DNA from: a virus
DNA: 64,000 bases
IMG/VR virus record: IMGVR_UViG_3300045988_174823
Strand: one strand, 5' to 3'
The position numbers and the translations under genes are program-made. Numbering within the stretch: position 1 is the stretch's first letter; the number at the start of each line of letters is the position of its first letter. This document shows, in pieces, positions 5,609-62,732 of this stretch. The notes under the pieces were generated by a model. It did not search any database, was not told the origin of the DNA, and was given only the letters and a program-made list of their open reading frames with translations.

Positions 5609-5610
5609 AC

Positions 5611-12224: not shown

Positions 12225-12248
12225 GACTTTATAGGTTCATAAGTTTCA

Positions 12249-12293
12249 TTTCCAATACAAAGGTAGTTAAATTTCTCCAAACTGCCAAGAGCG
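12249..12293 (-). promoter_or_regulatory. promoter-like repeat, copy P1 (divergent)
   Basis: Plus strand reads TTTCCAATACAAAGGTAGTTAAATTTCTCCAAACTGCCAAGAGCG. The sense strand has TACCTTTG (12265-12258), which matches TAnnTTTG, 34 nt upstream of the ATG at 12224. Confidence 0.45.
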
Positions 12294-12296
12294 TTG

Positions 12297-12854
12297 TTAA
12301 AATTTTATGCCAAAATCTAACGTGTAGCCCCATTGGTCATCAATTCTTATAGCTGACGCACCAACCAAAAACCGTTGGCGGAAGTCGGCCCCAGCGGAAA
12401 ACTTTTGCGTACCAAAATCCAAAGAAGTACCTATCTGGGCATAACCCTGTATGAAGGGGATCTGTTTATCAATAATCGTGCGTTCTACCTCATGAACGCG
12501 AATAAGCGGCTTGACGTGTGACACAACCTCTGTAATGGCGTTGCGCTGGACAGTGGCGTCAACGCGGAACTCGCCGATACTGTCGTTAGAAAAATCAAGG
12601 CGGTATTCCTTGCGTGCCAGATAGTCGGCCAGCAAAGCTGCGGTATCTATTTCGCCCGGTAAGTATATCGTAGTATCGCGGACGATGATCTGCGGAACAG
12701 GAATCTTAACCGTATCGCGATATTCGACCGTGTCATACTTTGTCAGCCACTTTTCAACGACTTTAGGGGGTTCAGGGGTATAACTACTCCGCCCCAGAAA
12801 GAACGCGAAAATTAAGGCCGCTACAACGATAATTATAGATGCCGCCGTCTTCAT
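12297..12854 (-). CDS. signal-anchored beta-rich protein ending in an OMP-like beta-signal (outer-membrane or spanin-like candidate)
   Basis: N-terminal TM segment IIIVVAALIFAFFL. C-terminus YTLDFGIKF has alternating hydrophobic residues and a terminal Phe. ATGA overlap with the upstream gene. Confidence 0.4.
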   Translation of the reverse strand: MKTAASIIIVVAALIFAFFLGRSSYTPEPPKVVEKWLTKYDTVEYRDTVKIPVPQIIVRDTTIYLPGEIDTAALLADYLARKEYRLDFSNDSIGEFRVDATVQRNAITEVVSHVKPLIRVHEVERTIIDKQIPFIQGYAQIGTSLDFGTQKFSAGADFRQRFLVGASAIRIDDQWGYTLDFGIKF

Positions 12855-17599: not shown

Positions 17600-17923
17600 T
17601 CAACACAACAGTTTCAAAATGTCGTTCCGCGCTGTTTTACGAATTATCAATGCCTGATGAAGAAGGTCGCCCCATACCGCTATCTGGTAACCATTCCACG
17701 TGTAATAATCCGTTTGATCGTCGTACGAGCCATTCCATTCACCGTCGTGGCGTATGTCAGCGACGAGGCGTTTAAAACGCGCTGTTTCTTCGGTGGTAAG
17801 GGGTGATATGAAAGTGCCGACGACTACTAATCGTGCGGCACTTGTGGAAAGATCATCGGCCAAAATCTGAAAGTCGATGCCCATAAAATCGCCCGTTTCC
17901 AACGGCGTGTGAAAGGTTATCAT
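17600..17923 (-). CDS. hypothetical protein
   Basis: 107-aa ORF, 4-nt overlap with the upstream gene. Confidence 0.5.
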   Translation of the reverse strand: MITFHTPLETGDFMGIDFQILADDLSTSAARLVVVGTFISPLTTEETARFKRLVADIRHDGEWNGSYDDQTDYYTWNGYQIAVWGDLLHQALIIRKTARNDILKLLC

Positions 17924-18930
17924 TTGCCTATCAATTTACAAGCTCTTGGTTCAAATGTAGAGCGTTGTTTACCTTCACCAATCTTCATTTTCCAGTACTT
18001 TTGATACTCACACAGCCACATTTCCACCTGGTGAAGTGATATCTCGCCCGACGGCGTGACGTAATACCCCGATTCAAGTTTGTGCCAGTGTAGGTACGGA
18101 AAATCGCCAAACGAAGATAACGCTGCCTGTGCCTCATCACGCAGGCGATATATACCGTCAATTTGACGCTTCAACGATGGGAACACCAACCGCAGCCCTA
18201 TGGACGCACCAGGCCCCACATTGGTATAGTCATCCTGGGTAAAGTGCATGAAACGGCGATAGGTATAGCGCGGTATGTAGGTGAAGTCTTGGTAGAATTC
18301 GTGAGCGATAAATGTCGCCGACGAAGGTAACTCCTGAAGGAACTTGATAATCTGCCCAGGATCGGTAGCCGTCAACACCGTCCGCATCAGTTTACCTAAC
18401 TTACGATGAAGCGTAGGCACAACCAAATGCGTGTAGCAGTAGTCGCGCGGTTTTCCAGGTGTGGCCATCGAATTGATGAGGTAGGCCGTGGTGTAGGGGT
18501 TGTTGCCTGTGGCACGGTACGACGTTATCATTTCCGCAAAGCGGTCCTCGTCGTATTGGTTATAATCCGGAATGCCCGCTCCCCAACCGTACTTTTCACG
18601 AGCATATTCAAACGTTTCAGGGTTGTTAAAATACCGGAACACCATCATCTTCCAAACCAGATTCGTCAGCGTTAATTCGTCATCCAGCAAGATATTACGT
18701 ATCTGCCACTGCGAATTACGATCCAGTTCACGATACACATTGGTGAATTTGTAATCGCGTAATATAGGATCATCAGTCCACGGACGCGGTTTCTGATCCA
18801 GGAACCGTCGCTTCCATATCATTTGGCGCTCAAACATCGTGCGGAAGAACTCGTGATAGTGTTCCTCGCTGACGTCAAGTGCGGCGTCAGGTAATTTATC
18901 AGCCCAAGGGTAATGATCAAATTTCGCCAT
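17920..18930 (-). CDS. aGPT-Pplase / 5-hmdU-DNA-kinase helical-domain-like protein (DNA base hypermodification candidate)
   Basis: 336-aa all-alpha-looking ORF. WKRRFLDQKPRPWTDDPILRDYKFTNVYRELDRNSQW matches my recollection of the conserved N-terminal motif of these families. Not verifiable here. Confidence 0.4.
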   Translation of the reverse strand: MAKFDHYPWADKLPDAALDVSEEHYHEFFRTMFERQMIWKRRFLDQKPRPWTDDPILRDYKFTNVYRELDRNSQWQIRNILLDDELTLTNLVWKMMVFRYFNNPETFEYAREKYGWGAGIPDYNQYDEDRFAEMITSYRATGNNPYTTAYLINSMATPGKPRDYCYTHLVVPTLHRKLGKLMRTVLTATDPGQIIKFLQELPSSATFIAHEFYQDFTYIPRYTYRRFMHFTQDDYTNVGPGASIGLRLVFPSLKRQIDGIYRLRDEAQAALSSFGDFPYLHWHKLESGYYVTPSGEISLHQVEMWLCEYQKYWKMKIGEGKQRSTFEPRACKLIGK

Positions 18931-22010: not shown

Positions 22011-22033
22011 AACCAATTTTGTTTTACGATTCC

Positions 22034-22092
22034 TTTCCAAGAGCGAAGGTACGGCGAAAAATCGGATTCTCCAAGAGAATTTGAAAAAATTT
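22034..22092 (-). promoter_or_regulatory. promoter-like repeat, copy P2
   Basis: Plus strand reads TTTCCAAGAGCGAAGGTACGGCGAAAAATCGGATTCTCCAAGAGAATTTGAAAAAATTTT. The sense-strand TACCTTCG box (22051-22044) lies 34 nt upstream of the ATG at 22010. Confidence 0.45.
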
Positions 22093-22383
22093 TCAACAAT
22101 CCATCACCAAATTACCTTTCAACTCCAATTCGTACAACCGTTCGGCATCAGGTTTGGCATAGCAGAATATCAGCTTACCACCACCTGCACACGCCAACGC
22201 TTGGCGATACACCTCCTTTATACGCGCGAATTCCTCACTGCGATAAAAATCATAATCGCTAACACACAACTCCCACCACCGCTCTTGATGAGACGCCCAG
22301 GCTATGACACCTGGGCGTTCGGCTTCGATACGCTTTACAGCGGCTAATAGTAACAAGGTATATTTCTGGCGATCGGCTTTCAT
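22093..22383 (-). CDS. hypothetical protein
   Basis: 96-aa ORF with an ATGA overlap with the upstream gene. Confidence 0.5.
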   Translation of the reverse strand: MKADRQKYTLLLLAAVKRIEAERPGVIAWASHQERWWELCVSDYDFYRSEEFARIKEVYRQALACAGGGKLIFCYAKPDAERLYELELKGNLVMDC

Positions 22384-22978: not shown

Positions 22979-23503
22979 CTATTTAATCGTTGAACCGAAC
23001 CCTCCGGCGTCGCGCATCGAAGGCGTCAACGTGTCGGTTTCCTCCACTTCAATATACGGCGCAGGGACGATGACCAACTGGGCTACAACGTCTCCTGCCT
23101 TAAATTCCTTGGTGCTCAGATTCACGTTTTGAGGCTTCATCCCCGCAACCTCACCGAAGACGTTGGAAAGTAATCCACAAACGCTCTTGAAGAACCTGTG
23201 AACCAGCGTAGGCAAATGCCACGTCTTCTTGTAACGAGCACGTATCGTGCCGCGGTAGCCAGGGTCGATAACCCCTGGAGCATTACACATCACCAGGTCC
23301 ATTTTTGAACAACGCGAATTCGGGACCAGCAACCCGCAATACCCCCTGGGAATTTCGACGGCGATGCCGGTATCGTATTCGATGTAATCTTCAGTTTCCT
23401 TTACGGTTACAGCCACGAGGTCCAGGCCGTTATCCTCACCACCAGGATGAGCATACGTCGGCAGTACGGCTTCAGGGTGTACTTTCTTGAATTTTACGGT
23501 CAT
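22979..23503 (-). CDS. dut: dUTPase (trimeric type) with a ~30-aa insertion between motifs III and IV
   Basis: Motifs NGLDLVAV, VPNSRCSK, GVIDPGYRGTI, GDVVAQLV and RDAGGFGSTIK. Confidence 0.85.
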   Translation of the reverse strand: MTVKFKKVHPEAVLPTYAHPGGEDNGLDLVAVTVKETEDYIEYDTGIAVEIPRGYCGLLVPNSRCSKMDLVMCNAPGVIDPGYRGTIRARYKKTWHLPTLVHRFFKSVCGLLSNVFGEVAGMKPQNVNLSTKEFKAGDVVAQLVIVPAPYIEVEETDTLTPSMRDAGGFGSTIK

Positions 23504-24315
23504 TTCTTGTATCCTTTTAAGTGTAATTTGACTTCTATCATTTCACGATCCTTCATCTCGCCACCCCAGTTGGTACACTTCTTGGTGCGGAGTGTGATGT
23601 ATTCAGGGAACGTTTCCCTTAAACGTTGTGACTCGGCGTTGGAGTTCTCGATAGTTCGGTACACAGAACAACCGCCAGCAGCGTTGGCTCCTGTCATTTT
23701 ATCGAACGAATACTGATACGAAACCACGTTATCCAACCCAGCACGACGCAGGCCACAAGCCAAGGCAAAATCCTCTTTTATAGGCCAATCACTGAACCTA
23801 ACAGGCTGGCTCAGATATTGCTCAATATTCAGCCCCCAAATGGAGAAGAACCGCCCATTAATTTGTACGTCGTGCGTCTTATCGCGGTTGAATGGCCTAT
23901 ACGAAAGAGCCGCCACGGCGTAGGTGTCCAACTGCTCCGCTACCCAGTCAAACATCATCGAATAGATGCATTCCTGGGCCTCGACGGTGAAATTGTCGTT
24001 GTTTACCACTACAGGGGTCTTGGCATCGTCTAAACGCAGTGAGAAAGACACGTTATCGTCTAAGAAAAAGACTCCGCCAAATCCCCTATCAGCGGCCTCT
24101 ACAACAATGTAGTCTCGTATGTCGCCTACACCGCGACATACCGTACTGTATTCCTCGATGGCGGCAACCTTACCGCCCCAGTTGCGTTGGTGAGCGGCCA
24201 ATTCGCCAGGGTGACAGAATACCGTTACGCGGCGACGGGCCTCAGGCGTTAGGCGCTGGAGGGTTTTCTGGCGGTCAATACGACCACGGGTGAATAGTGC
24301 TATCAGAGTTTTCAT
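23500..24315 (-). CDS. GT-A-like glycosyltransferase candidate, paralog-like to 4805-5608
   Basis: IALFTRGRIDR strand, VFFLDDNVSF (DxD-like), and a C-terminal AAGGCSVYRT...TFPEY motif shared with ORF 4805-5608. ATGA overlap with dut. Confidence 0.45.
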   Translation of the reverse strand: MKTLIALFTRGRIDRQKTLQRLTPEARRRVTVFCHPGELAAHQRNWGGKVAAIEEYSTVCRGVGDIRDYIVVEAADRGFGGVFFLDDNVSFSLRLDDAKTPVVVNNDNFTVEAQECIYSMMFDWVAEQLDTYAVAALSYRPFNRDKTHDVQINGRFFSIWGLNIEQYLSQPVRFSDWPIKEDFALACGLRRAGLDNVVSYQYSFDKMTGANAAGGCSVYRTIENSNAESQRLRETFPEYITLRTKKCTNWGGEMKDREMIEVKLHLKGYKK

Positions 24316-24334: not shown

Positions 24335-27052
24335 CTAACCTAACATATCGAATTTAAATCCGGTAGTCATACGCGACGCCGCCAAGTCGGCCAGCCAAAA
24401 CGACGACGAAATATCATCGTGACTACCGACACTCTCCAGCCCTTTTTCGGTAAAGGCAACGGAACCGAGGTCTTGGAAGATGAGGTCCTTGACCTGCTGA
24501 GAATAAACGTTACCTATCGGGATGTGGATTTTGCCGCGCTCGAACAACGTCGAAAGGTGCGGCCATCCGGTCTTCAGGTCGTACTTATCAATTCCCGTAG
24601 TGTGACCAATAACGGGCATACCCTCGGTGTCGGCTGTCTCGACGAATATCTGTTGGAATGTGTTATTCTCCATCACGATAAGGTCAGGCCGGAAGCGGGA
24701 GTTGATACGGCGCAGAACGTTCATCTGCTCGAAAAACTTGGCACCTTTTTCACGGTAGAGGTGCAACAGCCAGCGCTCGTCGGTCAATTCGTCAATACCC
24801 CATACGCTAAATACGGCGTAGTCGGCGCCGACGTTGGCTGAAATAGCGAAGTCGCACCCGACAACCACTTTAGAGAACTTAATGGGGAATTCTTCGCGCG
24901 AATCAACCAACGTGTAATTTTCCATCCGCAGTAGCGAACGCGTGAGGATTTCCATCGGGAAGATTGACGACTCGTTGGTAATCGGGCGACAAAGGTTCTC
25001 ACGCGAGAAGATGATTGAACCCTGGGTCTCCTTTTTATCCATCAGGTCCTTAAACGACCAACGCTGGGGCCAAAGGATTCGTCCGTCGGGGAAGATGGCT
25101 GGATACTCGATAACGAACCAACCGTTCTTGGTCTTCAGGTCGCCGTAAAGGTCTTCGGCGTGGAACGGCGTACCGACGACGATAATCTGGCCACCAGGTA
25201 CGAGCATATTCATGATTACGGAGTGGAAATAGTCGGTGGACTTATTTCGTTGGAGACTGGAGTAAATGACGTTGTCCTTCAAGCCGTCATCTACGATAAT
25301 CCAATACGGGTGAGCACCACGCACCGACGATCCAAAACCTTTTCCCGTCAAACGTGCTCCGTTACGGCACACGATATTGGTAGCCGACCAGTTGTTGGCT
25401 GTCGATTGGGGAAACAGCCGTTCCTTCAATATCTCGTTTTCCTCAATAGTGCCTTTCAGAATCTCCAAAAGGTCCACACTCTGTTGTAACGAGAACGAGA
25501 ACAAGAATCCGCGATTTGATGAAGCTGCCGCAGGTCGTTTCGAGTAGCGGGTGGTTGACGGCTTCTTGTAACGGTATAGCTGCCACGCGGCGTAGGCGTT
25601 GGAGAAATAGAACGAGTTGTGCGTAACCGTACCGTCACCCAGCACGAAGCGGTGGTCGCCGTCGGTGGTGATAGATATGTAGTCACCTTCACCCGCGGGC
25701 GTGATCTTCAACGACGATACCACCGTAGGGTGTACGCCGTCGATAGTGCCCCAGTCCTTGTGTGACGTCTTGGCGGCCCAGTCGGTTTGGACCTTTTTAC
25801 GAGCGATCTTTACTGGGATGCGGTCCAGTTCACCAGAAATAGTCACGCACCACGACGAATAGTCGCGGCCTAACGCTTTACAATACCGCGTTCCACCACC
25901 CATTCGGGTACAGAAGCCAAGGCTGTCGGCCAAGTTCTTCACGTCACACACCAACTGGTAGTTCGTATTACCGAAGTGATAGCCGCCCTGCCAATAGTTA
26001 CCGTCGGAATCGATCAACCCAGCCAACACCTGAAGACGAACTTCTTCGCTGTTGACGAGGTACTGCTCCGGAATGTGCTTATTGTAGAGCAGGTTGTAAC
26101 CCTTGAGCATCCTTTCCAGCGGGTTACGCTTACCGCGGCCACGAACGTCAATTCCAAGTGTCACTACCATACCATTTTGGCCATAGTGAAGCCCCAAGCG
26201 CTCGGCGTAAGAGTGTAAGTACTCACACACTTCAGGGTCGGCGGTGGTGATCTTCTGGTTGTTGGAGTTGCCGTCGCCTAACCAGTACCCAAGAAAATAT
26301 GGTTCCAACCCCACGGGCCGCGTGGGGTACTGCACTGCCACCTTGAAACCGCGGTAACGTTCCTTCACCCAGTTCGGGGTCTTGCTTAAAAGCGTCGGAA
26401 TATCAATATCCACTATCCGCTTCGACGCTGTAGCGATGGAACCGTTGCGGTCCTTCTCGATCAGCGTACAAATGTGGCGTGAGTTGACGGTGTGGCTATC
26501 ACCGCGCGACTGGTCGATACGGTACATCATCGAATCGTGGCCACGGCGCGTAGCAACCACGCGGCGGGGCTTAGAGTCGATGCCCATCAACAAGTCGCCA
26601 ACCACAACGTCTTCGACCTTTTTGATAGTTCCGTCGTACATTCGGACGGGGGTTCCGACGGCTTCGCACTTTCCGTGGTCACGCGCTGCGTTGATACACA
26701 ATTTCTTGTGGTTATGGACTAATTCACCCCATTCCAGGTGGTGCCACGACAGCTGGAAGTCAGGGATAACAGAGGTGATGAAATACGTCAAGTTGGCGCA
26801 TCGTAGGGTATCTTCTACGACGGCCGAAACGTTTTCTTCGTAGCGGGGTTTGAAGTCAATCGACGCGTCACCCGTGTACATAATACGATATGTGTCCTCC
26901 AACAGAGCGTCGAATATCGTATCAACGTCGTGTATATCGCCACTCATCATCTCATTCAACCCACGCTCGTCCATACCCTCGATTATTTCATCAACGAGGT
27001 CTAAACAAGCCAAACGGTGCGTAACCGAGGGTGCTGTAATCTGAGGTATCAT
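24335..27052 (-). CDS. terL: terminase large subunit interrupted by an intein in the Walker A motif
   Basis: Removing residues 129-479 gives NAARDHGK-SFYFS (P-loop). The remaining ~550 aa have a terminase-like layout. Confidence 0.8.
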   Translation of the reverse strand: MIPQITAPSVTHRLACLDLVDEIIEGMDERGLNEMMSGDIHDVDTIFDALLEDTYRIMYTGDASIDFKPRYEENVSAVVEDTLRCANLTYFITSVIPDFQLSWHHLEWGELVHNHKKLCINAARDHGKCEAVGTPVRMYDGTIKKVEDVVVGDLLMGIDSKPRRVVATRRGHDSMMYRIDQSRGDSHTVNSRHICTLIEKDRNGSIATASKRIVDIDIPTLLSKTPNWVKERYRGFKVAVQYPTRPVGLEPYFLGYWLGDGNSNNQKITTADPEVCEYLHSYAERLGLHYGQNGMVVTLGIDVRGRGKRNPLERMLKGYNLLYNKHIPEQYLVNSEEVRLQVLAGLIDSDGNYWQGGYHFGNTNYQLVCDVKNLADSLGFCTRMGGGTRYCKALGRDYSSWCVTISGELDRIPVKIARKKVQTDWAAKTSHKDWGTIDGVHPTVVSSLKITPAGEGDYISITTDGDHRFVLGDGTVTHNSFYFSNAYAAWQLYRYKKPSTTRYSKRPAAASSNRGFLFSFSLQQSVDLLEILKGTIEENEILKERLFPQSTANNWSATNIVCRNGARLTGKGFGSSVRGAHPYWIIVDDGLKDNVIYSSLQRNKSTDYFHSVIMNMLVPGGQIIVVGTPFHAEDLYGDLKTKNGWFVIEYPAIFPDGRILWPQRWSFKDLMDKKETQGSIIFSRENLCRPITNESSIFPMEILTRSLLRMENYTLVDSREEFPIKFSKVVVGCDFAISANVGADYAVFSVWGIDELTDERWLLHLYREKGAKFFEQMNVLRRINSRFRPDLIVMENNTFQQIFVETADTEGMPVIGHTTGIDKYDLKTGWPHLSTLFERGKIHIPIGNVYSQQVKDLIFQDLGSVAFTEKGLESVGSHDDISSSFWLADLAASRMTTGFKFDMLG
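25616..26668 (-). mobile_element. intein (351 aa) with LAGLIDADG homing endonuclease
   Basis: Starts with Cys (tgc, 26668-26666) and ends VTHN (aac, 25618-25616), followed by +1 Ser. Contains LGYWLGDGNS and LAGLIDSDGNY. Confidence 0.8.
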
Positions 27053-29067: not shown

Positions 29068-29288
29068 GGGGATGGATTAAACCTTTGATTGATGGAAGTA
29101 TGTTAAATACTTTATGGTCGGGGCGATATTTCACGCCCCGTGTTCGTCGGTTGTCGTTCCTATTGGTGCTCCCCTGTGCCGGCCGGGCGAACTGCCACAA
29201 CGATGACGAACGAAATTTCTTAAAAAGCCCCTCACCCATGGACTTTCGGGCCGCGTCTGCCGCACGCGGTTTTAATTGGGGCTTCTTG

Positions 29289-29359
29289 TTGACCCGGAAG
29301 GATTCGAACCTCCAACACCGGAACCAAAATCCGATGTGTTACCATTACACCACAGGTCA
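29289..29359 (-). tRNA. tRNA-Gln: tRNA-Gln (anticodon UUG)
   Basis: Hand-folded cloverleaf. Acceptor TGACCTG/CGGGTCA (U1-A72 as in bacterial tRNA-Gln), D arm GTGT-AATGGTA-ACAC, anticodon arm TCGGA-TTTTGGT-TCCGG, T arm GGAGG-TTCGAAT-CCTTC, discriminator A. No encoded CCA. Confidence 0.85.
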
Positions 29360-31954: not shown

Positions 31955-31977
31955 AACGTTGGCGATGTCTTACGCTG

Positions 31978-32074
31978 GTGTGTACGCGTGTGTACGCTGG
32001 CGTGTGGGGTGCTTGGCGGCTTGCTTCTCTCGCGCGCGCGTATGTCCACACGTGTACGCGCTTGCACGCGCGTG
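31978..32074. repeat. cluster of alternating purine-pyrimidine tracts and GTGTACGC repeats
   Basis: Uninterrupted alternating Pu/Py runs at 31978-31997 (20 nt), 32031-32045 (15 nt, including (CG)5), 32047-32061 (15 nt) and 32063-32074 (12 nt). GTGTACGC(G/T) occurs three times. Confidence 0.8.
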
Positions 32075-32084
32075 AGGCCCCAAA

Positions 32085-32116
32085 GTGTAGAGAGAAGTGT
32101 TTTTTTCTCTCTACAC
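32085..32116. repeat. perfect 12-bp inverted repeat (hairpin)
   Basis: GTGTAGAGAGAA (32085-32096), 8-nt loop, TTCTCTCTACAC (32105-32116). Confidence 0.85.
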
Positions 32117-32254
32117 CGGGTATTGGGGTAAAGGAGGGGGGGATTATAGGGGGGAAGGATAGGGAAGGTTAGGAAGTAAGGGGGTGTGGGGGGAGAGAAA
32201 CCTGCAGGAAGGGGAAGTAAGGGGGGAAGAAAGGGGAGGAGGAGAAGGGGGAAA
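32117..32254 (+). repeat. polypurine / G-run tract (G-quadruplex or triplex-prone)
   Basis: No C on the plus strand across 32117-32199 or 32207-32254. Eleven runs of G3-G7. Terminal pure-purine block of ~35 nt. Confidence 0.85.
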
Positions 32255-32444
32255 CCGCCAAAAGGGCGAAAATCTCTCTAAAAAACGAGAAAAATCTCAA
32301 CGACAGAAAATCGTCAAAACCAAAAACTGCCAAAGGGTGAAAACCGTCAAGAAAATCTTACAAGAAGAGCGAAACTGCCAAGACAGTCAATCAGGAAATC
32401 GCCAACAGCGAAAACCATCAACAGTCGTACAGCCCTCTTGGCAG
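32251..32444. promoter_or_regulatory. iteron-like array: about 10 imperfect direct repeats GAAA(A)yCGyCAA plus one inverted CTCTTGGCAG
   Basis: Copies start near 32251, 32268, 32289, 32306, 32322, 32339, 32351, 32371, 32395 and 32410, spaced 12-24 nt. An inverted copy lies at 32435-32444. The words CTGCCAAGA and AAATCGCCAACAG recur in promoter-like repeats P1 and P4. Confidence 0.6.
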
Positions 32445-32642
32445 CCAGGCGAAGGATGAAAGACGTCGCTGGAATGTCGTGGTCGGTGCTGGTGAGGCGT
32501 TACAGCCGAGGTGAACGTGTAACATCGTTCAACATGTCGCTGCGAGGTCGTTAAGACGTTAACGCGATTTTAGACCATTTGACGAACTATCTATCCTCAG
32601 GGGACCCCGGTGTACCGGAAAAGCATTTTGCGCAGTCAAACG

Positions 32643-32680
32643 AAAAGAAAAAGGGCCAATACAACAATTTGCATTGACCC
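32643..32680 (-). terminator. Rho-independent terminator after ORF 32706-33704
   Basis: Sense strand GGGTCAAT-(12 nt)-ATTGGCCC (8 bp, one G-U) followed by TTTTTCTTTT. Confidence 0.7.
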
Positions 32681-32705
32681 TCTACAGACGCAAATAGCCT
32701 ACGTG

Positions 32706-34298: not shown

Positions 34299-35183
34299 TT
34301 ACCAGTTTTGAAGTTCGTACTCTTCGAAGCGGGCTTCGTAGTCCTCCAAGCCGAGTTCACGTAATTGAACGTTGGCGGTGCTGATGGCAGTCGTCATCCG
34401 TCTTACGCCGGACCCGTACCTTACCATCGCCTCTTTAAGCGATTTTAGGCGGTCGTCCAACAGCAGTAGCCCCATCCACGCATATCGGACGAACTGCGGT
34501 CCCACCTCTTCGCACGAAAACCGCCCTTGATTCTCGACTGCGGTCACCAGCGTGGGTTCGTCGTTGCCGGTAACGCCACGATAGATGTGAAAAGTCAACG
34601 CCGATCGCTGGTCGATTTTACCTTCTGCGTCCACCAACCCAAACGTTACGGAGTTCTCGCTATACCGCGCCACACGCCAGTCGGCGCAGTTACGGTTCTT
34701 TTCCAGGAACTCAACCAAATCGCGGGAGAAATTATTCGTTAACTCCTCGACGGCGGCGTGATAGGTGTTAATCTTTTCACGCAGGGCTTCGTGTTCGCTC
34801 TTTCCGGCGTCGGTGGAAAGATAGCAGTGCTGGGTGTAGAAACGGAACCATTCCAGGCGAGCGTCGCGGAACAGCGACTCCATATCGTTCAGGTATTTGA
34901 CCATTTCGCGCTTTGATTTCTGGTACTCACCCACCCGGAACGAATTACCACCCATCGACTGGAATGCCAGATCGTACGCCTTTTGAGCCTCGAACGTAGG
35001 TTCGGGGTTGATGCCGGTACGACGGGCCTCAGCTTCGGTCCAGTCCTCGCGACGTTTGAAGACCTCGATGATAGCGTCCATGACGGCCTCCTTGGTTCTG
35101 AATTGGTTGATACGATACGTTTTCATCGTGCTATTTGGTTTTGCGGTTTTGACTATTTTATTCAGTGATGATTTCAGCGCCAT
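34299..35183 (-). CDS. hypothetical protein
   Basis: 294-aa ORF with an ATG start. Confidence 0.55.
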   Translation of the reverse strand: MALKSSLNKIVKTAKPNSTMKTYRINQFRTKEAVMDAIIEVFKRREDWTEAEARRTGINPEPTFEAQKAYDLAFQSMGGNSFRVGEYQKSKREMVKYLNDMESLFRDARLEWFRFYTQHCYLSTDAGKSEHEALREKINTYHAAVEELTNNFSRDLVEFLEKNRNCADWRVARYSENSVTFGLVDAEGKIDQRSALTFHIYRGVTGNDEPTLVTAVENQGRFSCEEVGPQFVRYAWMGLLLLDDRLKSLKEAMVRYGSGVRRMTTAISTANVQLRELGLEDYEARFEEYELQNW

Positions 35184-35775
35184 ATTTACCTACCAACTTG
35201 GCAGCCAGCGGAGCTGTCTTAGCGAATTCCGCAATAGCCTCCTGTGTGGTCGGCATTTTGGCTGACGAAATAATCACACGGCCAAGGTAGTCGCCGCCTT
35301 CGGTGTTAAACTGGAAGAGCCATTGTTTAGGCTCGCCACCCGATATGCGGCGAACGTAGTCAGCAGCCGATTCCTCGTTCTTGGGTTCTTCAGGCTGGAT
35401 AGGCGCCTTGGCCCACTCCATCCACGCCTTATTCCACGCCGAGCGAACGAACAACATATCACCGCTACCATCACCCCACCAATCGTTACAGTGCGAAAGG
35501 TGAGCGCCAATCTGGTTACGGTTAGCGGTGCAGAGTTTCTTGTAAATTGAGCGGAACATCGTCGATACCGCACGCCCAGCGAAATGACCACCTTCGCGAG
35601 CGTCGTTGGTACAATACCCCCAAGCGCCAACGGTTTCTACCTTACCCTCTTCGTTGAGGAACTCAGTTTCGGTATCGCCCCAGGCTCCAAACAAGAAGGT
35701 ATCTTTCAGGAGCTGCTGTTCTTCGGAGGTCAGGACCTTCACGATTTCGCGGATGGTTTCAACGGTTGCTTTCAT
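35158..35775 (-). CDS. hypothetical protein
   Basis: 205-aa ORF with its ATG at 35775, preceded by promoter-like repeat P3. Confidence 0.55.
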   Translation of the reverse strand: MKATVETIREIVKVLTSEEQQLLKDTFLFGAWGDTETEFLNEEGKVETVGAWGYCTNDAREGGHFAGRAVSTMFRSIYKKLCTANRNQIGAHLSHCNDWWGDGSGDMLFVRSAWNKAWMEWAKAPIQPEEPKNEESAADYVRRISGGEPKQWLFQFNTEGGDYLGRVIISSAKMPTTQEAIAEFAKTAPLAAKLVGKYGAEIITE

Positions 35776-35799
35776 AGTTTACGAGTGTTTTAGTTTAAC

Positions 35800-35889
35800 T
35801 TTTCCAAGAGCGAAGGTACGGCGAATTTCCCAAACCGCCAAGAGAATCTTGAAAATTTTTCTATTTTTACGAAGATTTTTCCAAGACCC
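35800..35889 (-). promoter_or_regulatory. promoter-like repeat, copy P3
   Basis: Plus strand reads TTTTCCAAGAGCGAAGGTACGGCGAATTTCCCAAACCGCCAAGAGAATCTTGAAAATTTTTC...TTTTTCCAAGACCC. The sense-strand TACCTTCG box (35818-35811) lies 36 nt upstream of the ATG at 35775. Confidence 0.5.
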
Positions 35890-35952: not shown

Positions 35953-35997
35953 GCCATAAAATAAAGGAGGTTGGCGACCACACGGACCACCAACCTC
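35953..35997 (-). terminator. Rho-independent terminator after ORF 36026-36409
   Basis: Perfect 8-bp stem GAGGTTGG/CCAACCTC (35967-74/35990-97) followed on the sense strand by CTTTATTTTAT. Confidence 0.65.
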
Positions 35998-38623: not shown

Positions 38624-38815
38624 CTACCTACGATTTAAGTATTCGATAACACGATCTATCGCATACGCGCCATACCCGATAACGAGCATCCCGAATAGTT
38701 TCACCAGCCCGTCGCCGTACCAAATCAAGTTGATACCCACAAACGCTATCACAGTGACGATTATTACTAACATCCAAACGGCGCGCTCTTCCTGCTGTTT
38801 ACGATTCTTGTTCAT
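38624..38815 (-). CDS. small membrane protein (two TM helices)
   Basis: The ATG at 38815 (MNKNRKQQEERAVWMLVIIVTVIAFVGINLIWYG...) follows the upstream stop by 1 nt. The track ORF start at 38950 overlaps the upstream gene. Confidence 0.45.
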   Translation of the reverse strand: MNKNRKQQEERAVWMLVIIVTVIAFVGINLIWYGDGLVKLFGMLVIGYGAYAIDRVIEYLNRR

Positions 38816-38816
38816 T

Positions 38817-39071
38817 TTACAGAGTCTTGAGGAGATTTTCGATAGCCTCACGACGCGTTGCGCCGTAAGCGGGGATATTGGTGTTACCTTGTGCGTCGAT
38901 GATTTCAGCAGCCGACCAACGGAGTTCGTAGTTACCGCGCAGCCCCTCATCGCGAGCCCAAGAGCGGCACAGCCCCGTATTATCGTCTTCGTAAACTACT
39001 TCGTCGCGGACCAGAACCTGGCACAGAACCTCAACTTCGAATTTTACAGTCTTTTTTACAATCGCCTTCAT
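38817..39071 (-). CDS. hypothetical protein
   Basis: The ATG at 39071 is preferred over 39092. It places the conserved TACCTTCG box 32 nt upstream, as in the other three repeat copies. Confidence 0.45.
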   Translation of the reverse strand: MKAIVKKTVKFEVEVLCQVLVRDEVVYEDDNTGLCRSWARDEGLRGNYELRWSAAEIIDAQGNTNIPAYGATRREAIENLLKTL

Positions 39072-39091
39072 AGCTTTAGAGTTTAGTTTCA

Positions 39092-39188
39092 TTTTCCAAG
39101 AGCGAAGGTAGTGTAAATCTCCAAGACTTCAAAGAGAATCGCGAAAAATCTTCCAAGAAAAGTGAATTATTTCGTAAATCGCCAACAG
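39092..39188 (-). promoter_or_regulatory. promoter-like repeat, copy P4
   Basis: Plus strand reads TTTTCCAAGAGCGAAGGTAGTGTAAATCTCCAAGACTTCAAAGAGAATCGCGAAAAATCTTCCAAGAAAAG...AAATCGCCAACAG. Confidence 0.5.
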
Positions 39189-39221
39189 AAACCCCCAGCG
39201 GACGAGTTGGTCCACCGGGGG
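39186..39221 (-). terminator. terminator-like imperfect hairpin after ORF 39242-39793
   Basis: CCCCCAGCGGAC / GTCCACCGGGGG (10 of 12 bp) followed on the sense strand by a weak TTTCTGTT tract. Confidence 0.35.
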
Positions 39222-39241
39222 CACAGATAATACAACGGTTG

Positions 39242-39793
39242 TTAGATGAATTTACGTGTTATCCACTGGATGTACTCCTTTCTCACTTTCAACCGTTCAT
39301 CGTCGCCGCGAAGACTATTTTGCTCACACACATACGACCGCTTGGCTATTTCGTAACACGTCATTTTATCCATTTGTTCCATCATCCACTGATACGCGTC
39401 GCCAAATTGTGCCGTTGACTCAATACCTGTAATATGTCCCACGGGATGTTCCGTACTTATATGCACTACCAACGGGAATTGGCGCATATCTTGACGCTTT
39501 AGGTATAGCCTAATAAAAGCCGGATACGTGCCACCAACGTTTGGCGGTGCTCCTGGAATATATTCCGCATATACGCCGTTAGATAACGCTACGCGGTTAT
39601 GGTAGTACGCATTCAGAGCACGCTTAGTAATACGATTCACCACTTCGTCAAAATCCATCGTATTAACGTCAACGGTTTCGAGTCCTACCAGTTGGCGCAC
39701 CTTAAACAACGACGGACGGTATTCATACCACATCGCAATTAATATAACCACGATACATACCGCTGCGGCGAAAAGTGTCGATTTGTCGTCCAT
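39242..39793 (-). CDS. hypothetical membrane-anchored protein
   Basis: 183 aa with an N-terminal TM segment LFAAAVCIVVILIAMWY. Confidence 0.5.
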   Translation of the reverse strand: MDDKSTLFAAAVCIVVILIAMWYEYRPSLFKVRQLVGLETVDVNTMDFDEVVNRITKRALNAYYHNRVALSNGVYAEYIPGAPPNVGGTYPAFIRLYLKRQDMRQFPLVVHISTEHPVGHITGIESTAQFGDAYQWMMEQMDKMTCYEIAKRSYVCEQNSLRGDDERLKVRKEYIQWITRKFI

Positions 39794-49044: not shown

Positions 49045-49896
49045 CTATAAGATAATAACGTTGGTGCGAATCATACCCTTGAACCACCCATCAGGTACGG
49101 GAACTCCCTTTGGTAAACGTTTATTTTTCAATCCATTATTAATCCATACAAATTTCGTTCCGGTTAGCGGATGTGGATGGGTAGAATAGTATTTCTTCAT
49201 CCGTTCCGACACCACATTTTTATGTTTACTATAATATTTCTTGTTAGCTTCAGAAATTTTGCGTTTAGTATCATCCGACATTGCGCCTCGTACACGCCCT
49301 GACATAATTTCCGAATGTCTTCTTTTCCATTCTTCGGTGTGATGTTTACCGCGCAACGCCTCGGCAACTTTGTTTATGTGCTCTTGAGTCTTTTTCTTTC
49401 CTCTTAACGCTTTCGATATCTTTTCGCGGTGTTCTGCAGTGATAATTCTCCCGATAAGAGATTGGGACTTCTTGGCTTTTGACTCTTCTGATTGCTTAAT
49501 TCCTGTCATCCGAATCCTTATTGCTTCTCGCGCTGCTGGAGAAGATAACCTCCGTTTAGCGGCGATTGACATTTTACACTTAACCTCAGGAATTTTAGCC
49601 GGGTTTACTTGACCAAACATATTCGATGAACCCGGAAGGATGTTATATCCTATGTCCTTTTCAGTCGAGTGCAGCTTCTTGATGTAAAGCATCTCCCAAG
49701 CATCCAACTGAGGTTGTGTGTCGCAAATACGGAGCGTTTCACGCTTGAAATTCTCAGGGCCGTAATGTCTAACAGCTAAGAGCAAGTTCCTTCCGCTTCC
49801 CAAATACCCGTCGAATTCGTCAGATTCACAAACGTGTTAACCGATGTAAATCTTGCCGTTGACGAGGTTCGTAGTTTTGTAAATTATACCGTACAT
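49045..49896 (-). pseudogene. free-standing GIY-YIG homing endonuclease gene with an in-frame TAA at codon 20
   Basis: MYGIIYKTTNLVNGKIYIG*HVCESDEFDGYLGSG.... The TAA at 49839-49837 replaces the CAA found in the paralog at 59772. The rest of the frame stays open (NUMOD-like C-terminus). The first 32 nt are identical to copy 2. Confidence 0.75.
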
Positions 49897-56313: not shown

Positions 56314-56961
56314 TTAAATTATATCGTTTTGTAAGTCATTAATGGCTCCTACCCATACGTACATCAGGCGTTCTTGCTCACAAATATCCGCCGATACACA
56401 CGTACTTTGTAACGTTGAAACCGCCCTACGATAGCTATCCTTACAATACGGTAATAAATCCAAAGGCCAAGAGCGGTTTCCCATCCCCACCTCACGATGC
56501 AAGAAATACAACAACGCCATCCAATCGGCCACCTTTACAATCGCGTGAGCAACGTCGTAATACGGTGCATCCTTTGAAAGCGTTTTGGCAATTACCGAAT
56601 CGTCTCCGAATTCGGCCATTACCTGGTGCGCAACAAACTCGTCCAAAACGTTACGCAGTTCCGACCCGTTATAAGCGTTATATTTAAGTTCGTGGGTGAT
56701 ATCGCGACGCAGAATAGCCTCGTCGAAGTCATGCATCAGCGCCATCTTCAGCGTCTGATACTTGAACGTAGCCACCGTATTATTATCGTCCCCTCCAGGC
56801 CAGAGATAGTCCAGCAGGCACATCGTGAAGACCGATACCTTGTACGAATGTTGCGAAACGCTTTCCTGCTGGTGGCGGTCATACTCCAACCACTGCTTGA
56901 TGTTATCCAACCGCGCAAGATGATCGCGGTTGAAGAGTTTGATTAAATCATCCTTTTGCAT
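56314..56961 (-). CDS. HD-domain 5'-deoxynucleotidase (YfbR-like) candidate
   Basis: ESVSQHSYKVSVFTMCLL and MALMHDFDEAILRRDITHELKY parallel YfbR ENVAEHS... and ...HDASEVLTGDLPTPVKY. Confidence 0.55.
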   Translation of the reverse strand: MQKDDLIKLFNRDHLARLDNIKQWLEYDRHQQESVSQHSYKVSVFTMCLLDYLWPGGDDNNTVATFKYQTLKMALMHDFDEAILRRDITHELKYNAYNGSELRNVLDEFVAHQVMAEFGDDSVIAKTLSKDAPYYDVAHAIVKVADWMALLYFLHREVGMGNRSWPLDLLPYCKDSYRRAVSTLQSTCVSADICEQERLMYVWVGAINDLQNDII

Positions 56962-59022: not shown

Positions 59023-59772
59023 TTCTTTCTCGGTTTCATTCCATGCCAAAATCCATCGGGGAGAGAGGCGTCCTTGCAAATAGTAGCGTTTATTTCGCCG
59101 TTAGTTATCCTAACTTTGCCTTGCATAGGGTTCGTGTATCCACGTTCATACCTATCGCGTAATTTCTTTCCAAAATCTTTTCGCCGCTCCTCGGGCCAGC
59201 GATTATGCCAGTTAGGGTTATTTTCACCCTTGTATCGCCCTTTCATTTTAGCCGACAAATTTGCCTTTTGTTCAGCCGTCCATCGGTTGCCGTAGTTTGG
59301 ATTCTTTTCGCCTATGTATCGCCCTTTTAAGGTCTTCGAAATTTTTTTTCTTATAATCAGTATTATCTAAAGCAATTTGACGTTTTTGATGAATTTGCTT
59401 CATTAATTCTGGATGATTCTTGAATGTCTTTTTAAGCGACCGTGAAACTTTCAAAGCAACCTCTGGAATCAACATGGGTGAGCCGCTTCCAAACTTATTA
59501 GCCGTACCCGATAAGATATTGTAGCCAATCCTCTTATTGGTTGAATTGAGTTTCTTGATGTATAGCATTCCCCAGGCGTCGAGTTGTAACTGGGTATCGC
59601 ATACGCGGAGCGTTTCACGCTTGAAGTTCTCAGGTCCGTAATGTTTAACCGCGTTCGTCAAAGATACACCACTACCCAAATACCCGTCAAACTCGTCAGA
59701 TTCGCAAACATGTTGGCCGATATAAATCTTGCCGTTAATTAGGTTCGTAGTTTTGTAAATTATACCGTACAT
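59019..59772 (-). mobile_element. GIY-YIG homing endonuclease gene inserted in dnaE, split into two frames at an A8 run
   Basis: ORF 59272-59772 has GIIY...KIYIG. The NUMOD3-like repeats (GEKNPNYG, GENNPNWH) continue in the frame of ORF 59019-59258, open from 59366. The frames meet at sense-strand A8 (plus T8 at 59342-59349), and A7 would give one ORF. Confidence 0.75.
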
Positions 59773-62682: not shown

Positions 62683-62732
62683 ATCCTTAATACGGTTTTA
62701 TCTGGGGTAAATAACGTTGAAGACGGGTGGAC

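What the first reader, a model, noticed from the sequence alone, without database searches (positions are those of the whole stretch)
35800..35889. Four-copy promoter-like repeat with a fixed-distance TACCTT(C/T)G box
A 45-95-nt element occurs upstream of four minus-strand genes, with core plus-strand sequence TTT(T)CCAAGAGCGAAGGTA followed by AAATyTCC...CCAAGAGAAT...GAAAA. The copies are P1 12249-12293, P2 22034-22092, P3 35800-35889 and P4 39092-39188. On the sense strand each carries TACCTTCG (TACCTTTG in P1), ending 32-36 nt before the ATG. This resembles the Bacteroidota -7 element TAnnTTTG. P3 and P4 sit directly after terminator hairpins, giving a terminator-promoter arrangement. The element may mark one temporal gene class, possibly read by the phage sigma factor.
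Basis: partly seen in the sequence, partly recalled or inferred. Interest (0 to 1): 0.65.

Follow-up and report, generated by a model that had tools for sequence, protein, structure and literature searches.

The report
Repeated host-type promoters in a Bacteroidota phage
The four repeats are real and are most likely ordinary promoters that the bacterial host's own RNA polymerase reads to switch on blocks of phage genes, so this is a useful annotation, not a new kind of system.

Summary
A profile search finds exactly four copies in the window, all in gaps upstream of minus-strand genes. P2, P3 and P4 share an exact 18-mer, and P1 is a degenerate copy.

On the sense strand each copy has this layout:
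- an A/T tract;
- (CTC)TT[G/T]G;
- exactly 19 nt of spacer;
- TACCTT[C/T]G;
- 4-5 nt, then an invariant GGAAA;
- a 26-30 nt A-rich, unstructured leader without a Shine-Dalgarno sequence;
- ATG.

This is the Bacteroidota housekeeping-sigma promoter (-33 TTTG / -7 TAnnTTTG). A pattern written from that consensus alone recovers these four sites and no other intergenic site in 64 kb.

In about 60 orthologous copies from related viral contigs, the positions that stay fixed are the consensus ones. Whole promoter alleles are swapped, but TT[T/G]G-19 nt-TAHHTT[T/C]G is kept.

I found no sigma-factor domain in the window or in 18 kb of flanking sequence from a near-identical relative. The phage-sigma idea is therefore unsupported.

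P3 and P4 follow strong terminators and head 3-kb cassettes of small unknown genes. Cassette indels and conversion tracts in relatives break inside the promoters. This resembles the T4-type promoter/stem-loop cassettes (PeSLs).

Verdict: a new member of a known kind, of modest interest.

The parts
39072..39154 (-). P4 promoter. A/T tract 39154-39141; -33 ATTCTCTTTG 39139-39130 (TTTG 39133-39130); 19-nt spacer; -7 box TACCTTCG 39110-39103; predicted start G at 39097 (+/-1); 26-nt leader 39097-39072; ATG 39071-39069.
   Evidence: orthologues
39191..39222 (-). Intrinsic terminator hairpin upstream of P4: 13 pairs (9 G-C), tail TTCTGTTGG. It ends the unit of gene 39242-39793.
   Evidence: In relatives a hairpin of different sequence occupies the same place.
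35776..35862 (-). P3 promoter (the finding's copy). A/T tract 35862-35849; -33 ATTCTCTTGG 35847-35838; 19-nt spacer; -7 box TACCTTCG 35818-35811; predicted start G at 35805 (+/-1); 30-nt leader 35805-35776; ATG 35775-35773.
35967..35997 (-). Intrinsic terminator hairpin (13 pairs), tail CTTTATTTTA. It ends the P4 unit (genes 39071-36026) about 70 nt before the P3 element.
   Evidence: Conserved across orthologues in alignment A2.
32650..32683 (-). Terminator hairpin (15 pairs) that ends the P3 unit (genes 35775-32706).
22011..22095 (-). P2 promoter. A/T tract 22095-22082, overlapping the stop codon of gene 22093-22383; -33 ATTCTCTTGG 22080-22071; 19-nt spacer; -7 box TACCTTCG 22051-22044; predicted start G at 22038; 28-nt leader; ATG 22010-22008 (DUF2786/DUF7168 protein, followed by a 5'-3' exonuclease).
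12225..12309 (-). P1 promoter, the degenerate copy. A/T tract 12309-12296, overlapping the end of gene 12297-12854; -33 GCTCTTGG 12292-12285; 19-nt spacer; canonical -7 box TACCTTTG 12265-12258; predicted start G at 12253/12252; 28-nt leader; ATG 12224-12222 (595-aa protein of unknown function).
17952..17981 (-). Possible further host-type promoter inside the 3' end of gene 17920-18930: TTGG-18 nt-TACATTTG, 29 nt before the ATG of gene 17600-17923. It matches only the generic consensus and is not part of the repeat family.
   Evidence: Not tested further.

Best explanation
P1-P4, plus a fifth copy just beyond the window, are promoters of the Bacteroidota housekeeping type, read by the host RNA polymerase with its primary sigma factor.

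Inferred mechanism:
- The A/T tract at about -55 to -45 acts as an UP-like element.
- TT[G/T]G at -35 to -32 is the -33 element.
- Exactly 19 nt further on, TACCTT[C/T]G at -12 to -5 is the -7 element.
- Transcription starts 4-5 nt later, at the first G of an invariant GGAAA.
- The transcript carries a 26-30 nt A-rich, unstructured leader without a Shine-Dalgarno sequence, which suits Bacteroidota translation initiation.

P5, P4 and P3 head short units of small unknown genes. P3 and P4 are bounded by terminators on both sides. This is the layout expected of genes expressed by the unmodified host enzyme, most likely early in infection.

Because the copies are so alike, they also serve as points of homologous exchange. 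Promoter alleles and the first downstream genes are shuffled between related genomes.

Shown: the sequence anatomy, its statistics, its conservation pattern, the terminators and the recombination footprints.

Inferred: the recognising sigma factor, the start site, promoter strength and timing.
For: 1. A pattern written from the published host consensus alone, TT[TG]G-N18-20-TAHHTT[TC]G, hits the coding strand 5 times. Four hits are P1-P4, all intergenic and 32-36 nt from an ATG. The other strand has 0 hits, and 0.22 are expected. No other intergenic -7-like box lies 20-60 nt before any start codon.

2. The spacer is exactly 19 nt in all four copies and in every orthologue.

3. Orthologues retrieved through the neighbouring proteins, and therefore not biased towards the motif, show the following.
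- P1: 14 distinct sequences. P2: 16. P3: 13. P4: 11. P5: 10.
- T-12, A-11, T-8 and T-7 are invariant. G-5 is kept in all but two P1 variants and one P3 variant.
- The two 'n' positions vary (CC, CT, TC, AT) and are never G.
- Position -6 is T or C.
- When CTCTTGG is replaced, the replacement is TATTTTG (canonical TTTG) with the 19-nt spacing kept (L084-86, L092, L009/L102).

4. The boxes are the best-conserved segments. In P5 the -33 box, the -7 box and the start region are 100% invariant, against 0.70 mean identity in the leader. In P3 the boxes score 0.91 and 0.94, against 0.82 for the spacer.

5. The promoter stays about 90% identical where the adjacent proteins have fallen to 46-60% amino-acid identity.

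6. The published consensus places T-12, A-11, T-8, T-7, T-6 and G-5 as nearly invariant, gives TAHHTTTG with 4-5 nt to the start site, and reports a mean leader of 33 nt (PMC6847099).

7. The host phylum is consistent.
- Only 6 of 81 genes have a Shine-Dalgarno-like 4-mer.
- A peaks at -13/-14 and a purine at -3.
- The closest cultured relatives infect Chryseobacterium and Bacteroides and Maribacter.
- Sigma-70-type promoter matches are at background level.

8. No sigma-factor domain was found.

9. The leaders are unstructured (-1.7 to -4.6 kcal/mol, z about 0) and no Rfam family matches.

10. Recombination footprints.
- Homology in more than 15 relatives breaks at window 39078, inside the P4 leader, and three different genes follow that promoter.
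- L029's P3 carries a 38-nt tract identical to P4.
- L219's P4 carries a P3-type spacer.
Against: - Three of the four copies, and all ten P5 orthologues, have C at -6, where host promoters are reported to have a nearly invariant T.
- The -33 element is mostly TTGG within a conserved CTCTTGG, not TTTG.
- The C-containing core always travels with CTCTTGG just downstream. This could be an extra recognition site.
- A distant cultured relative, Chryseobacterium phage MA9V-3, has its own repeated element, TGTTG-N21-TAYCTTTA, which departs from the host consensus at -5. The lineage may therefore use a promoter dialect that needs a phage factor.
- The host species is unknown. About 17 kb of the roughly 99-kb genome was not examined for sigma or polymerase genes.
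- There are no transcript data.
- The phage probably hypermodifies thymidine, so recognition of these T-rich boxes on virion DNA is untested.
Confidence: 0.75

Rival explanations
1. A phage-specific promoter class. The host polymerase recognises TACCTTCG plus CTCTTGG only after modification by a phage-encoded sigma factor or a sigma-appropriating activator. These would then be middle or late promoters, not host-read ones.
For: - C at -6 is fixed in P2, P4 and P5 orthologues.
- CTCTTGG is conserved at -33 and recurs at +1.
- The related Chryseobacterium phage has a repeated TAYCTTTA box that lacks the host's G-5.
- Portal similarity to SPO1-like phages. From my own knowledge, those phages use phage sigma factors.
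Against: - No sigma-factor domain appears in about 82 kb of the roughly 99-kb genome.
- Many orthologues carry fully canonical TTTG/TAnnTTTG versions at the same sites.
- The downstream CTCTTGG is replaced by TAGTGG in those alleles.
- The units P3-P5 drive are small-gene cassettes bounded by terminators, which is typical of host-read early genes.
Confidence: 0.12
2. The main function is as operator or activator sites for a phage DNA-binding protein. That protein would bind the direct repeats (T)CTCTTGG(A), spaced 34 nt apart, with further TCTTGGA copies upstream in P3 and P4.
For: CCAAGAG occurs 13 times against 5 expected, and 6 of the 13 lie inside the four elements. The 34-nt spacing of the two main copies is constant.
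Against: - The +1 copy is lost in the TACCTTTG-TAGTGG alleles, and the -33 copy is lost in the TATTTTG alleles. The -33/-7 consensus positions and the spacing persist in both.
- The second TTGG, at about -24, is absent from P2.
- No candidate regulator was identified.
Confidence: 0.05
3. This explanation can hold alongside the best one. The elements are mobile regulatory cassettes of the PeSL type. Their near-identity is maintained by recombination between copies and in turn promotes it, and this shuffles the genes downstream.
For: - The breakpoint at 39078 in the P4 leader is shared by more than 15 relatives, and three alternative first genes follow P4.
- Conversion tracts are seen in L029 and L219.
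- The same 20-nt 'type B' upstream half occurs at P2 in some genomes and at P3 in others.
- The cores TTCG+CTCTTGG and TTTG+TAGTGG behave as linked haplotypes spread in a mosaic over sites and genomes.
- Terminators sit next to P3 and P4.
Against: - There are only about 5 copies per genome, against about 50 PeSLs.
- The hairpins lie beside the promoter, not inside it, and P1 and P2 have none.
- The gene A indel can also be explained by a 5-nt microhomology (ACTCT).
- No mini-circles or recombination intermediates can be seen in sequence data.
Confidence: 0.4
4. A chance or neutral repeat with no function, such as a remnant of duplication.
For: None beyond the small number of copies.
Against: - The statistics.
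- The strict strand and intergenic placement at a fixed distance from start codons.
- Conservation above that of flanking coding sequence, next to proteins that are only 46-60% identical.
Confidence: 0.02

Closest known systems
Bacteroidota primary-sigma (sigma-A-Bfr) promoter, -33 TTTG / -7 TAnnTTTG (PMC2483708 and PMC6847099 summarise it; PMC9723704 places the box at -12 to -5)
   Same: - TA at -12/-11, TT at -8/-7 and G at -5.
- No G at the two 'n' positions.
- A TT(T/G)G element 19 nt upstream.
- A purine start 4-5 nt after the box.
- A leader of about 30 nt without a Shine-Dalgarno sequence.
- P1 and many orthologues match the consensus exactly.
   Different: - C instead of T at -6 in P2-P5.
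- TTGG within a longer conserved CTCTTGG at -33.
- Conserved GGAAA start region and A/T tract.
- Five near-identical copies, where host promoters are a loose consensus.
Strong Bacteroides phage promoter P_BfP1E6, used in Bacteroides synthetic biology (described through bioRxiv 10.1101/2025.03.18.644028 and PMC11554821, both citing Whitaker et al. 2017, which I could not read)
   Same: A phage-borne promoter read constitutively by uninfected Bacteroides. It is described as having UP elements and the -7 consensus, and as stronger than host rRNA and rpoD promoters.
   Different: I could not obtain its sequence, so no base-by-base comparison was made. It comes from a different phage. No activity data exist for the present elements.
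PeSL (promoter-early stem-loop) cassettes of T4-type phages (PMC2839356, PMC4122927)
   Same: - Repeated, strong, host-consensus promoters with an upstream AT-rich region.
- Coupled to terminator hairpins.
- Placed before small genes of unknown function.
- Found at the ends of insertions, deletions and replacements between related genomes.
   Different: - The host consensus is the Bacteroidota -33/-7 type, not sigma-70.
- About 5 copies, not about 50.
- Hairpins lie upstream of the promoter and do not overlap it, and are absent at P1 and P2.
- The phage is not a T4-type virus. Its portal is closest to a Chryseobacterium phage, SPO1-like phages and Bacteroides DAC phages.
Repeated TGTTG-N21-TAYCTTTA elements of Chryseobacterium phage MA9V-3 (PV245944.1).
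   Same: - A distant relative (portal 41% identical, about 103 kb, all genes on one strand, tRNA-Gln).
- At least 10 copies in 50 kb against 0.27 expected, all on the coding strand and before small genes.
- The box core is TA(C/T)CTT, and one copy reads TACCTTCG.
   Different: - The -33-like element is TGTTG with a 21-nt spacer.
- The box ends in A, not G.
- Short inverted repeats overlap the -33 region.
- There is no sequence homology to the present elements beyond the box.
Host-sigma-read early promoters of the SPO1 host-takeover module (from my own knowledge, not checked here)
   Same: Clustered strong early promoters and terminators in front of small genes, in a phage with hydroxymethyl-uracil-type DNA.
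   Different: The host is Gram-positive with a sigma-A -35/-10 consensus. SPO1 has known phage sigma factors for later classes, and none was found here.

Membership tests
Bacteroidota primary-sigma -33/-7 promoter | -7 element with T-12, A-11, T-8, T-7 and G-5 | tested here: met
   Present in all four copies. T-12, A-11, T-8 and T-7 are invariant across orthologues of P1-P5. G-5 is lost only in two P1 variants and one P3 variant.
Bacteroidota primary-sigma -33/-7 promoter | T at -6 (TTTG), reported as nearly invariant in host promoters | tested here: inconclusive
   - Met in P1 and in most P3 orthologues and some P4 orthologues.
- C in the window's P2, P3 and P4 and in all P5 orthologues.
- This is one mismatch to a statistical consensus, and its effect on host recognition is unknown.
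Bacteroidota primary-sigma -33/-7 promoter | No G at -10/-9 (TAHHTTTG) | tested here: met
   Only CC, CT, TC and AT are seen.
Bacteroidota primary-sigma -33/-7 promoter | -33 element TTTG at a fixed distance of about 19 nt upstream of the -7 element. The consensus motifs are taken from the papers read here; the usual spacing range is from my own knowledge. | tested here: met
   - TTTG in P4 and P5, TTGG in P1-P3.
- The spacer is exactly 19 nt everywhere.
- Replacement alleles carry TATTTTG at the same spacing.
Bacteroidota primary-sigma -33/-7 promoter | Transcription starts 4-5 nt downstream of the box and depends on host holoenzyme | not testable with these tools
   There are no RNA data and no identified host. 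The start is only predicted, at the G of the invariant GGAAA.
Bacteroidota primary-sigma -33/-7 promoter | Host belongs to the Bacteroidota | tested here: inconclusive
   Indirect evidence only:
- 6 of 81 genes have a Shine-Dalgarno-like 4-mer, and A is enriched at -13/-14.
- The nearest cultured relatives infect Chryseobacterium, Bacteroides and Maribacter.
- A scan of 185,579 species genomes with the exact 18-mer gave only chance matches.
PeSL cassettes of T4-type phages | Strong host-consensus promoter with an AT-rich upstream region | tested here: met
   Met with the Bacteroidota consensus in place of sigma-70. Promoter strength was not tested.
PeSL cassettes of T4-type phages | Stem-loop terminator built into the promoter motif (between, overlapping or just beside the boxes) | tested here: not met
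   Hairpins lie upstream of P3 (about 70 nt) and P4 (about 3 nt from the stem, the T-rich tail overlapping the element's upstream end) only. P1 and P2 have none, and no hairpin lies between the boxes.
PeSL cassettes of T4-type phages | Tens of copies concentrated in hyperplastic regions before ORFans | tested here: not met
   Five copies in about 82 kb. P3-P5 do precede genes with no family match.
PeSL cassettes of T4-type phages | Located at the ends of indels and replacements between related genomes | tested here: met
   Breakpoint at 39078 in the P4 leader, alternative first genes after P4, and conversion tracts in L029 and L219.
Promoter class of a phage-encoded sigma factor | A sigma factor (or RNA polymerase) is encoded by the phage | tested here: not met
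   No sigma or polymerase domain appears in Pfam or PHROGs scans of the window's ORFs and of 18 kb of flanks. About 17 kb of the genome was not seen.
Promoter class of a phage-encoded sigma factor | A consensus distinct from that of the host housekeeping sigma | tested here: not met
   The conserved positions coincide with the host consensus. Only -6 C and the CTCTTGG context differ.

The most novel reading that the evidence does not exclude
The lineage, which includes Chryseobacterium phage MA9V-3, uses its own promoter dialect: TAYCTT(C/T)(G/A) with an extended CTCTTGG or TGTTG upstream element. This dialect would deviate from the host consensus at -6/-5 on purpose. Two reasons are possible. 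The boxes may have to be read on thymidine-hypermodified virion DNA. Alternatively, an unrecognised phage protein may retarget the host polymerase. At the same time the near-identical copies would act as PeSL-like recombination modules. That would be the first such mobile promoter cassettes outside T4-type phages and in Bacteroidota.
Probability: 0.2. Interest if true: 0.55.

Novelty: new member of a known kind. Interest (0 to 1): 0.3.

Why it matters
- It gives a well-supported promoter and transcription-unit map for an uncultivated phage family of about 100 kb: start regions, leaders, and terminators bounding two 3-kb cassettes.
- The phage family comes partly from human-gut samples, where very few phage promoters are known.
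- The elements are candidate strong, compact promoter and leader parts for Bacteroidota engineering. The only widely used strong part there is also phage-derived.
- The natural allele swaps amount to a ready-made mutational series for the -33/-7 promoter. They include a conserved C at -6, which is worth testing.
- The recombination footprints suggest that promoter-mediated module shuffling, described for T4-type phages, also operates in this lineage.
- None of this changes how phage transcription is understood.

Tried and rejected
- **Phage sigma factor or RNA polymerase.** Pfam and PHROGs scans covered about 75 window ORFs and 42 further ORFs. The further set included 7.7 kb upstream and 10 kb downstream from a 95-99% identical contig. 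No sigma domain was found.
- **E. coli-type promoters.** The sigma-70 scan is at shuffle level.
- **RNA element in the leader.** Rfam finds only the tRNA. Leader folds are no better than shuffles.
- **Close cultured relatives.** Megablast of 12 kb against 50,697 phage records gave no match. A blastn search with the element gave only chance hits.
- **Bacteroides phage DAC19.** It has 24% G+C and is too distant. It carries ordinary host-type promoters but no related element.
- **Host identification.** The exact 18-mer in 185,579 species genomes gave four chance matches, in Pseudomonas, a Lachnospiraceae MAG and a Thermodesulfobacteriota MAG, none related to the phage.
- **Function of the first genes after P1 and P3.** No Pfam, PHROGs or PDB sequence match.
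- **Whitaker 2017.** I could not read it to compare the P_BfP1E6 sequence.
- **More copies in the window.** I looked for weaker copies and for boxes ending in A or T. None is intergenic.
- **Concerted evolution within one genome.** I considered this as the reason for the exact 18-mer. It is rejected as a general rule because single genomes mix allele types, for example L009 with a type-A P4 and a type-B P3.

Full report
**What the window is**

Nearly all long ORFs lie on the minus strand, and G+C is about 49%. Family scans identify the following genes.
- Packaging: large terminase and portal.
- Replication and recombination: a split family-B DNA polymerase, a Dda-like helicase, SbcCD-like nuclease, UvsX-like recombinase and a resolvase.
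- DNA modification: a set of genes for thymidine hypermodification.

No cultured phage is similar at the DNA level. By protein, the nearest cultured phages infect Chryseobacterium (portal 41% identical), Bacteroides thetaiotaomicron (terminase and portal 37%) and Maribacter.

Only 6 of 81 genes have a Shine-Dalgarno-like 4-mer upstream. A peaks at -13/-14 and a purine at -3. These are the translation signals described for Bacteroidota (PMC6847099). Matches to the E. coli promoter type are at shuffle level. The host is therefore probably a member of the Bacteroidota, but this is an inference.

**Checking the observation**

- The 17-mer TTCCAAGAGCGAAGGTA occurs exactly at 22035, 35802 and 39094, against 0.18 expected even with three mismatches allowed. 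The repeat finder groups these three sites as one 61-nt family.
- The same 17-mer occurs in 43 stretches of about 25 IMG/VR viral contigs. Of these, 40 are homologous elements.
- A profile built from those copies finds exactly four copies in the window. They are P4, P2 and P3 (E 1e-23 to 1e-19) and P1 (E 3e-4).
- All four lie in intergenic gaps on the coding strand. The box ends 31-35 nt before the ATG.
- The true starts of the genes after P4 and P2 are the ATGs at 39071 and 22010.
- The 87-aa ORF that covers P3 is spurious.

P1 is a weak copy.

**Anatomy on the sense strand**

Aligning the copies gives this layout:
- an A/T tract such as GAAAAATTTTC;
- about 7 nt;
- (AT)TCTCTT[G/T]G;
- exactly 19 nt;
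- TACCTT[C/T]G;
- CTCTT or TAGT;
- GGAAA;
- a 26-30 nt A-rich leader;
- ATG.

The published consensus for the primary sigma factor of Bacteroidota is -33 TTTG and -7 TAnnTTTG. In it:
- the box occupies -12 to -5;
- there is no G at the two free positions;
- there are 4-5 nt to the start site;
- the mean leader is 33 nt.

These come from PMC2483708, PMC6847099 and PMC9723704.

I wrote a pattern from that consensus alone, TT[TG]G-N18-20-TAHHTT[TC]G. It hits the coding strand five times. Four hits are P1-P4. The other strand has none, and 0.22 are expected. No other intergenic -7-like box lies 20-60 nt before any start codon.

The predicted start is the first G of the invariant GGAAA. This falls at 35805, 39097, 22038 and 12252/12253.

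**Comparative test**

I retrieved orthologous sites through the neighbouring proteins, so the sample is not biased towards the motif.
- P1: 14 distinct sequences.
- P2: 16.
- P3: 13.
- P4: 11.
- P5, a fifth site just outside the window: 10.

Across all of these:
- T-12, A-11, T-8 and T-7 never change. G-5 changes only in two P1 variants and one P3 variant.
- The free positions vary (CC, CT, TC, AT) and are never G.
- Position -6 is T or C.
- The spacer is always 19 nt.

In some genomes the whole upstream half is replaced by an unrelated sequence. That replacement carries TATTTTG, the canonical -33 element, at the same spacing, together with canonical TACCTTTG, TATCTTTG or TAATTTTG (L084-86, L092, L009/L102).

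The boxes are the most conserved segments. The promoters remain about 90% identical next to proteins that have diverged to 46-60% identity. This pattern is what selection for recognition by the host housekeeping sigma would produce.

**Terminators and units**

Strong hairpins with T tails lie at 39222-39191, 35997-35967 and 32683-32650 on the minus strand. They define a P4 unit (39071-36026, about ten small ORFs) and a P3 unit (35775-32706, five ORFs). None of the ORFs I scanned in either unit has a convincing family match.

In relatives whose upstream gene is only 46-50% identical, a different hairpin sequence occupies the same place before P4. P1 and P2 have no terminator. Their A/T tracts overlap the stop codons of the preceding genes.

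**The phage-sigma idea**

I found no sigma-factor or RNA-polymerase domain. The search covered the window's ORFs. It also covered 7.7 kb upstream and 10 kb downstream, taken from a 95-99% identical contig. About 17 kb of the roughly 99-kb genome remains unseen.

Because the conserved positions are those of the host consensus, a phage sigma factor is not needed to explain the elements.

Three caveats remain.
- C at -6 is fixed in P2, P4 and P5.
- CTCTTGG is conserved at -33 and, in the C-type core, again just downstream of the box.
- The distantly related Chryseobacterium phage MA9V-3 has its own repeated TGTTG-N21-TAYCTTTA element, at least 10 copies in 50 kb against 0.27 expected. It departs from the host consensus at -5.

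**Recombination**

The copies also look like exchange points.
- In more than 15 relatives, homology to the window runs through the P4 promoter, stops at 39078 inside the leader, and resumes at 38825 or 38649.
- Three different genes follow that promoter in different genomes.
- L029's P3 contains a 38-nt tract identical to P4.
- L219's P4 carries a P3-type spacer.
- The two core types, TACCTTCG+CTCTTGG and TACCTTTG+TAGTGG, behave as linked haplotypes scattered over sites and genomes.

This parallels the promoter/stem-loop cassettes of T4-type phages (PMC2839356, PMC4122927). However, the copy number is far lower and the hairpins are not built into the promoter. I would say it works like a PeSL without being one.

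**Other readings excluded**

The leaders do not fold better than shuffles, and no Rfam family matches. The exact 18-mer occurs in bacterial genomes only by chance. A regulator that binds the CTCTTGG repeats cannot be the main function, because either repeat can be lost while the promoter consensus persists.

**Verdict**

The repeat is real. It is best explained as a small family of host-type (Bacteroidota -33/-7) promoters with an UP-like tract and a conserved start region and leader. They probably drive early units, and they double as recombination modules. This is a new member of a known kind and of modest interest. The phage-sigma suggestion has no support.

Noticed in passing
window minus strand at 62719, 49063, 31961, 29728, 28324; related sequence at 35930-35918: A second, strand-specific promoter-like motif, C(C/T)NCA(A/G)CGTTAT(A/T).
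- The exact form CAACGTTAT occurs 5 times against 0.62 expected, and never on the + strand.
- It lies about 30-36 nt before start codons or about 20 nt after terminators.
- Upstream of the thyA-like gene it is kept as CCAGCGTTAT, followed by ATAAAA, in orthologues of 67-81% identity. There the terminator stem shows compensatory changes.
- It may mark the middle or late class and could be the more unusual signal in this genome.
   Followed up: partly
just beyond the window end (about 64.55 kb); L192:7003-7033: A fifth copy of the promoter (P5): TTTG-19 nt-TACCTTCG with an A/T tract. It lies before a 210-aa ORF and the Lys/Ala-rich protein 62799-63839. The -33 box, the -7 box and the start region are invariant in 10 orthologues.
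   Followed up: yes
17920-18930, 4805-5638, 23500-24315, 6279-7238, 61465-62682, 22979-23503, 56314-56961: A gene set for thymidine hypermodification:
- a 5-hmdU DNA kinase domain (E 4.5e-52);
- two TET-associated glycosyltransferases;
- a radical SAM/SPASM protein;
- a thymidylate-synthase-like enzyme;
- a dUTPase/dCTP-deaminase-like protein;
- a YfbR-like HD nucleotidase.

The T-rich promoter boxes may therefore be chemically modified in virion DNA.
   Followed up: no
59760-61463 / 59272-59772 / 56977-59079; paralogue 49045-49803: The family-B DNA polymerase is split into two ORFs by a GIY-YIG/NUMOD3 homing-endonuclease-like gene. A 73-89% identical partial copy of that gene lies 9.9 kb away (repeat families D1 and D3).
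   Followed up: no
7238-9268 and 24335-27052: The 676-aa protein carries Hint/intein-splicing and DUF559 endonuclease domains, so an intein is likely. The 905-aa large terminase has an extra N-terminal half that matches helicase/primase-like phage proteins.
   Followed up: no
31955-32705: About 750 nt without a credible gene. It has C-rich and GGGGAAG-type repeats and alternating CGCGTGTACAC tracts. GC skew changes sign locally between 30 and 34 kb. It may be a replication or packaging landmark.
   Followed up: no
35158-35775: The first gene after P3 has an N-terminal domain of about 123 aa. This domain is 58-67% identical to ORFs in more than 60 viral contigs of other, smaller phage groups, including human stool samples. 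It has no Pfam, PHROGs or PDB match. This is a widespread phage protein of unknown function.
   Followed up: partly
L211 (Chryseobacterium phage MA9V-3, PV245944.1, 1-50000), e.g. 29373, 30405, 31091, 31614, 31919, 32211, 32722: This cultured distant relative has at least 10 copies of a repeated element, TGTTG-N21-TAYCTTTA, before small genes. Short inverted repeats often overlap the upstream box, which looks like a PeSL. As far as I know this has not been described.
   Followed up: partly
38817-39071 vs relatives (L016, L043, L212-L217): The 84-aa gene directly after P4 is absent from many close relatives. In them the promoter leader joins the next gene (the 63-aa membrane protein 38624-38815) at a 5-nt repeat, ACTCT. 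Other relatives carry a different first gene (MKRFNL...).
   Followed up: partly
29288-29359 and 29618: A tRNA-Gln (TTG) lies in a long non-coding stretch. A canonical TACTTTTG box without a good -33 element lies about 260 nt upstream of it.
   Followed up: no
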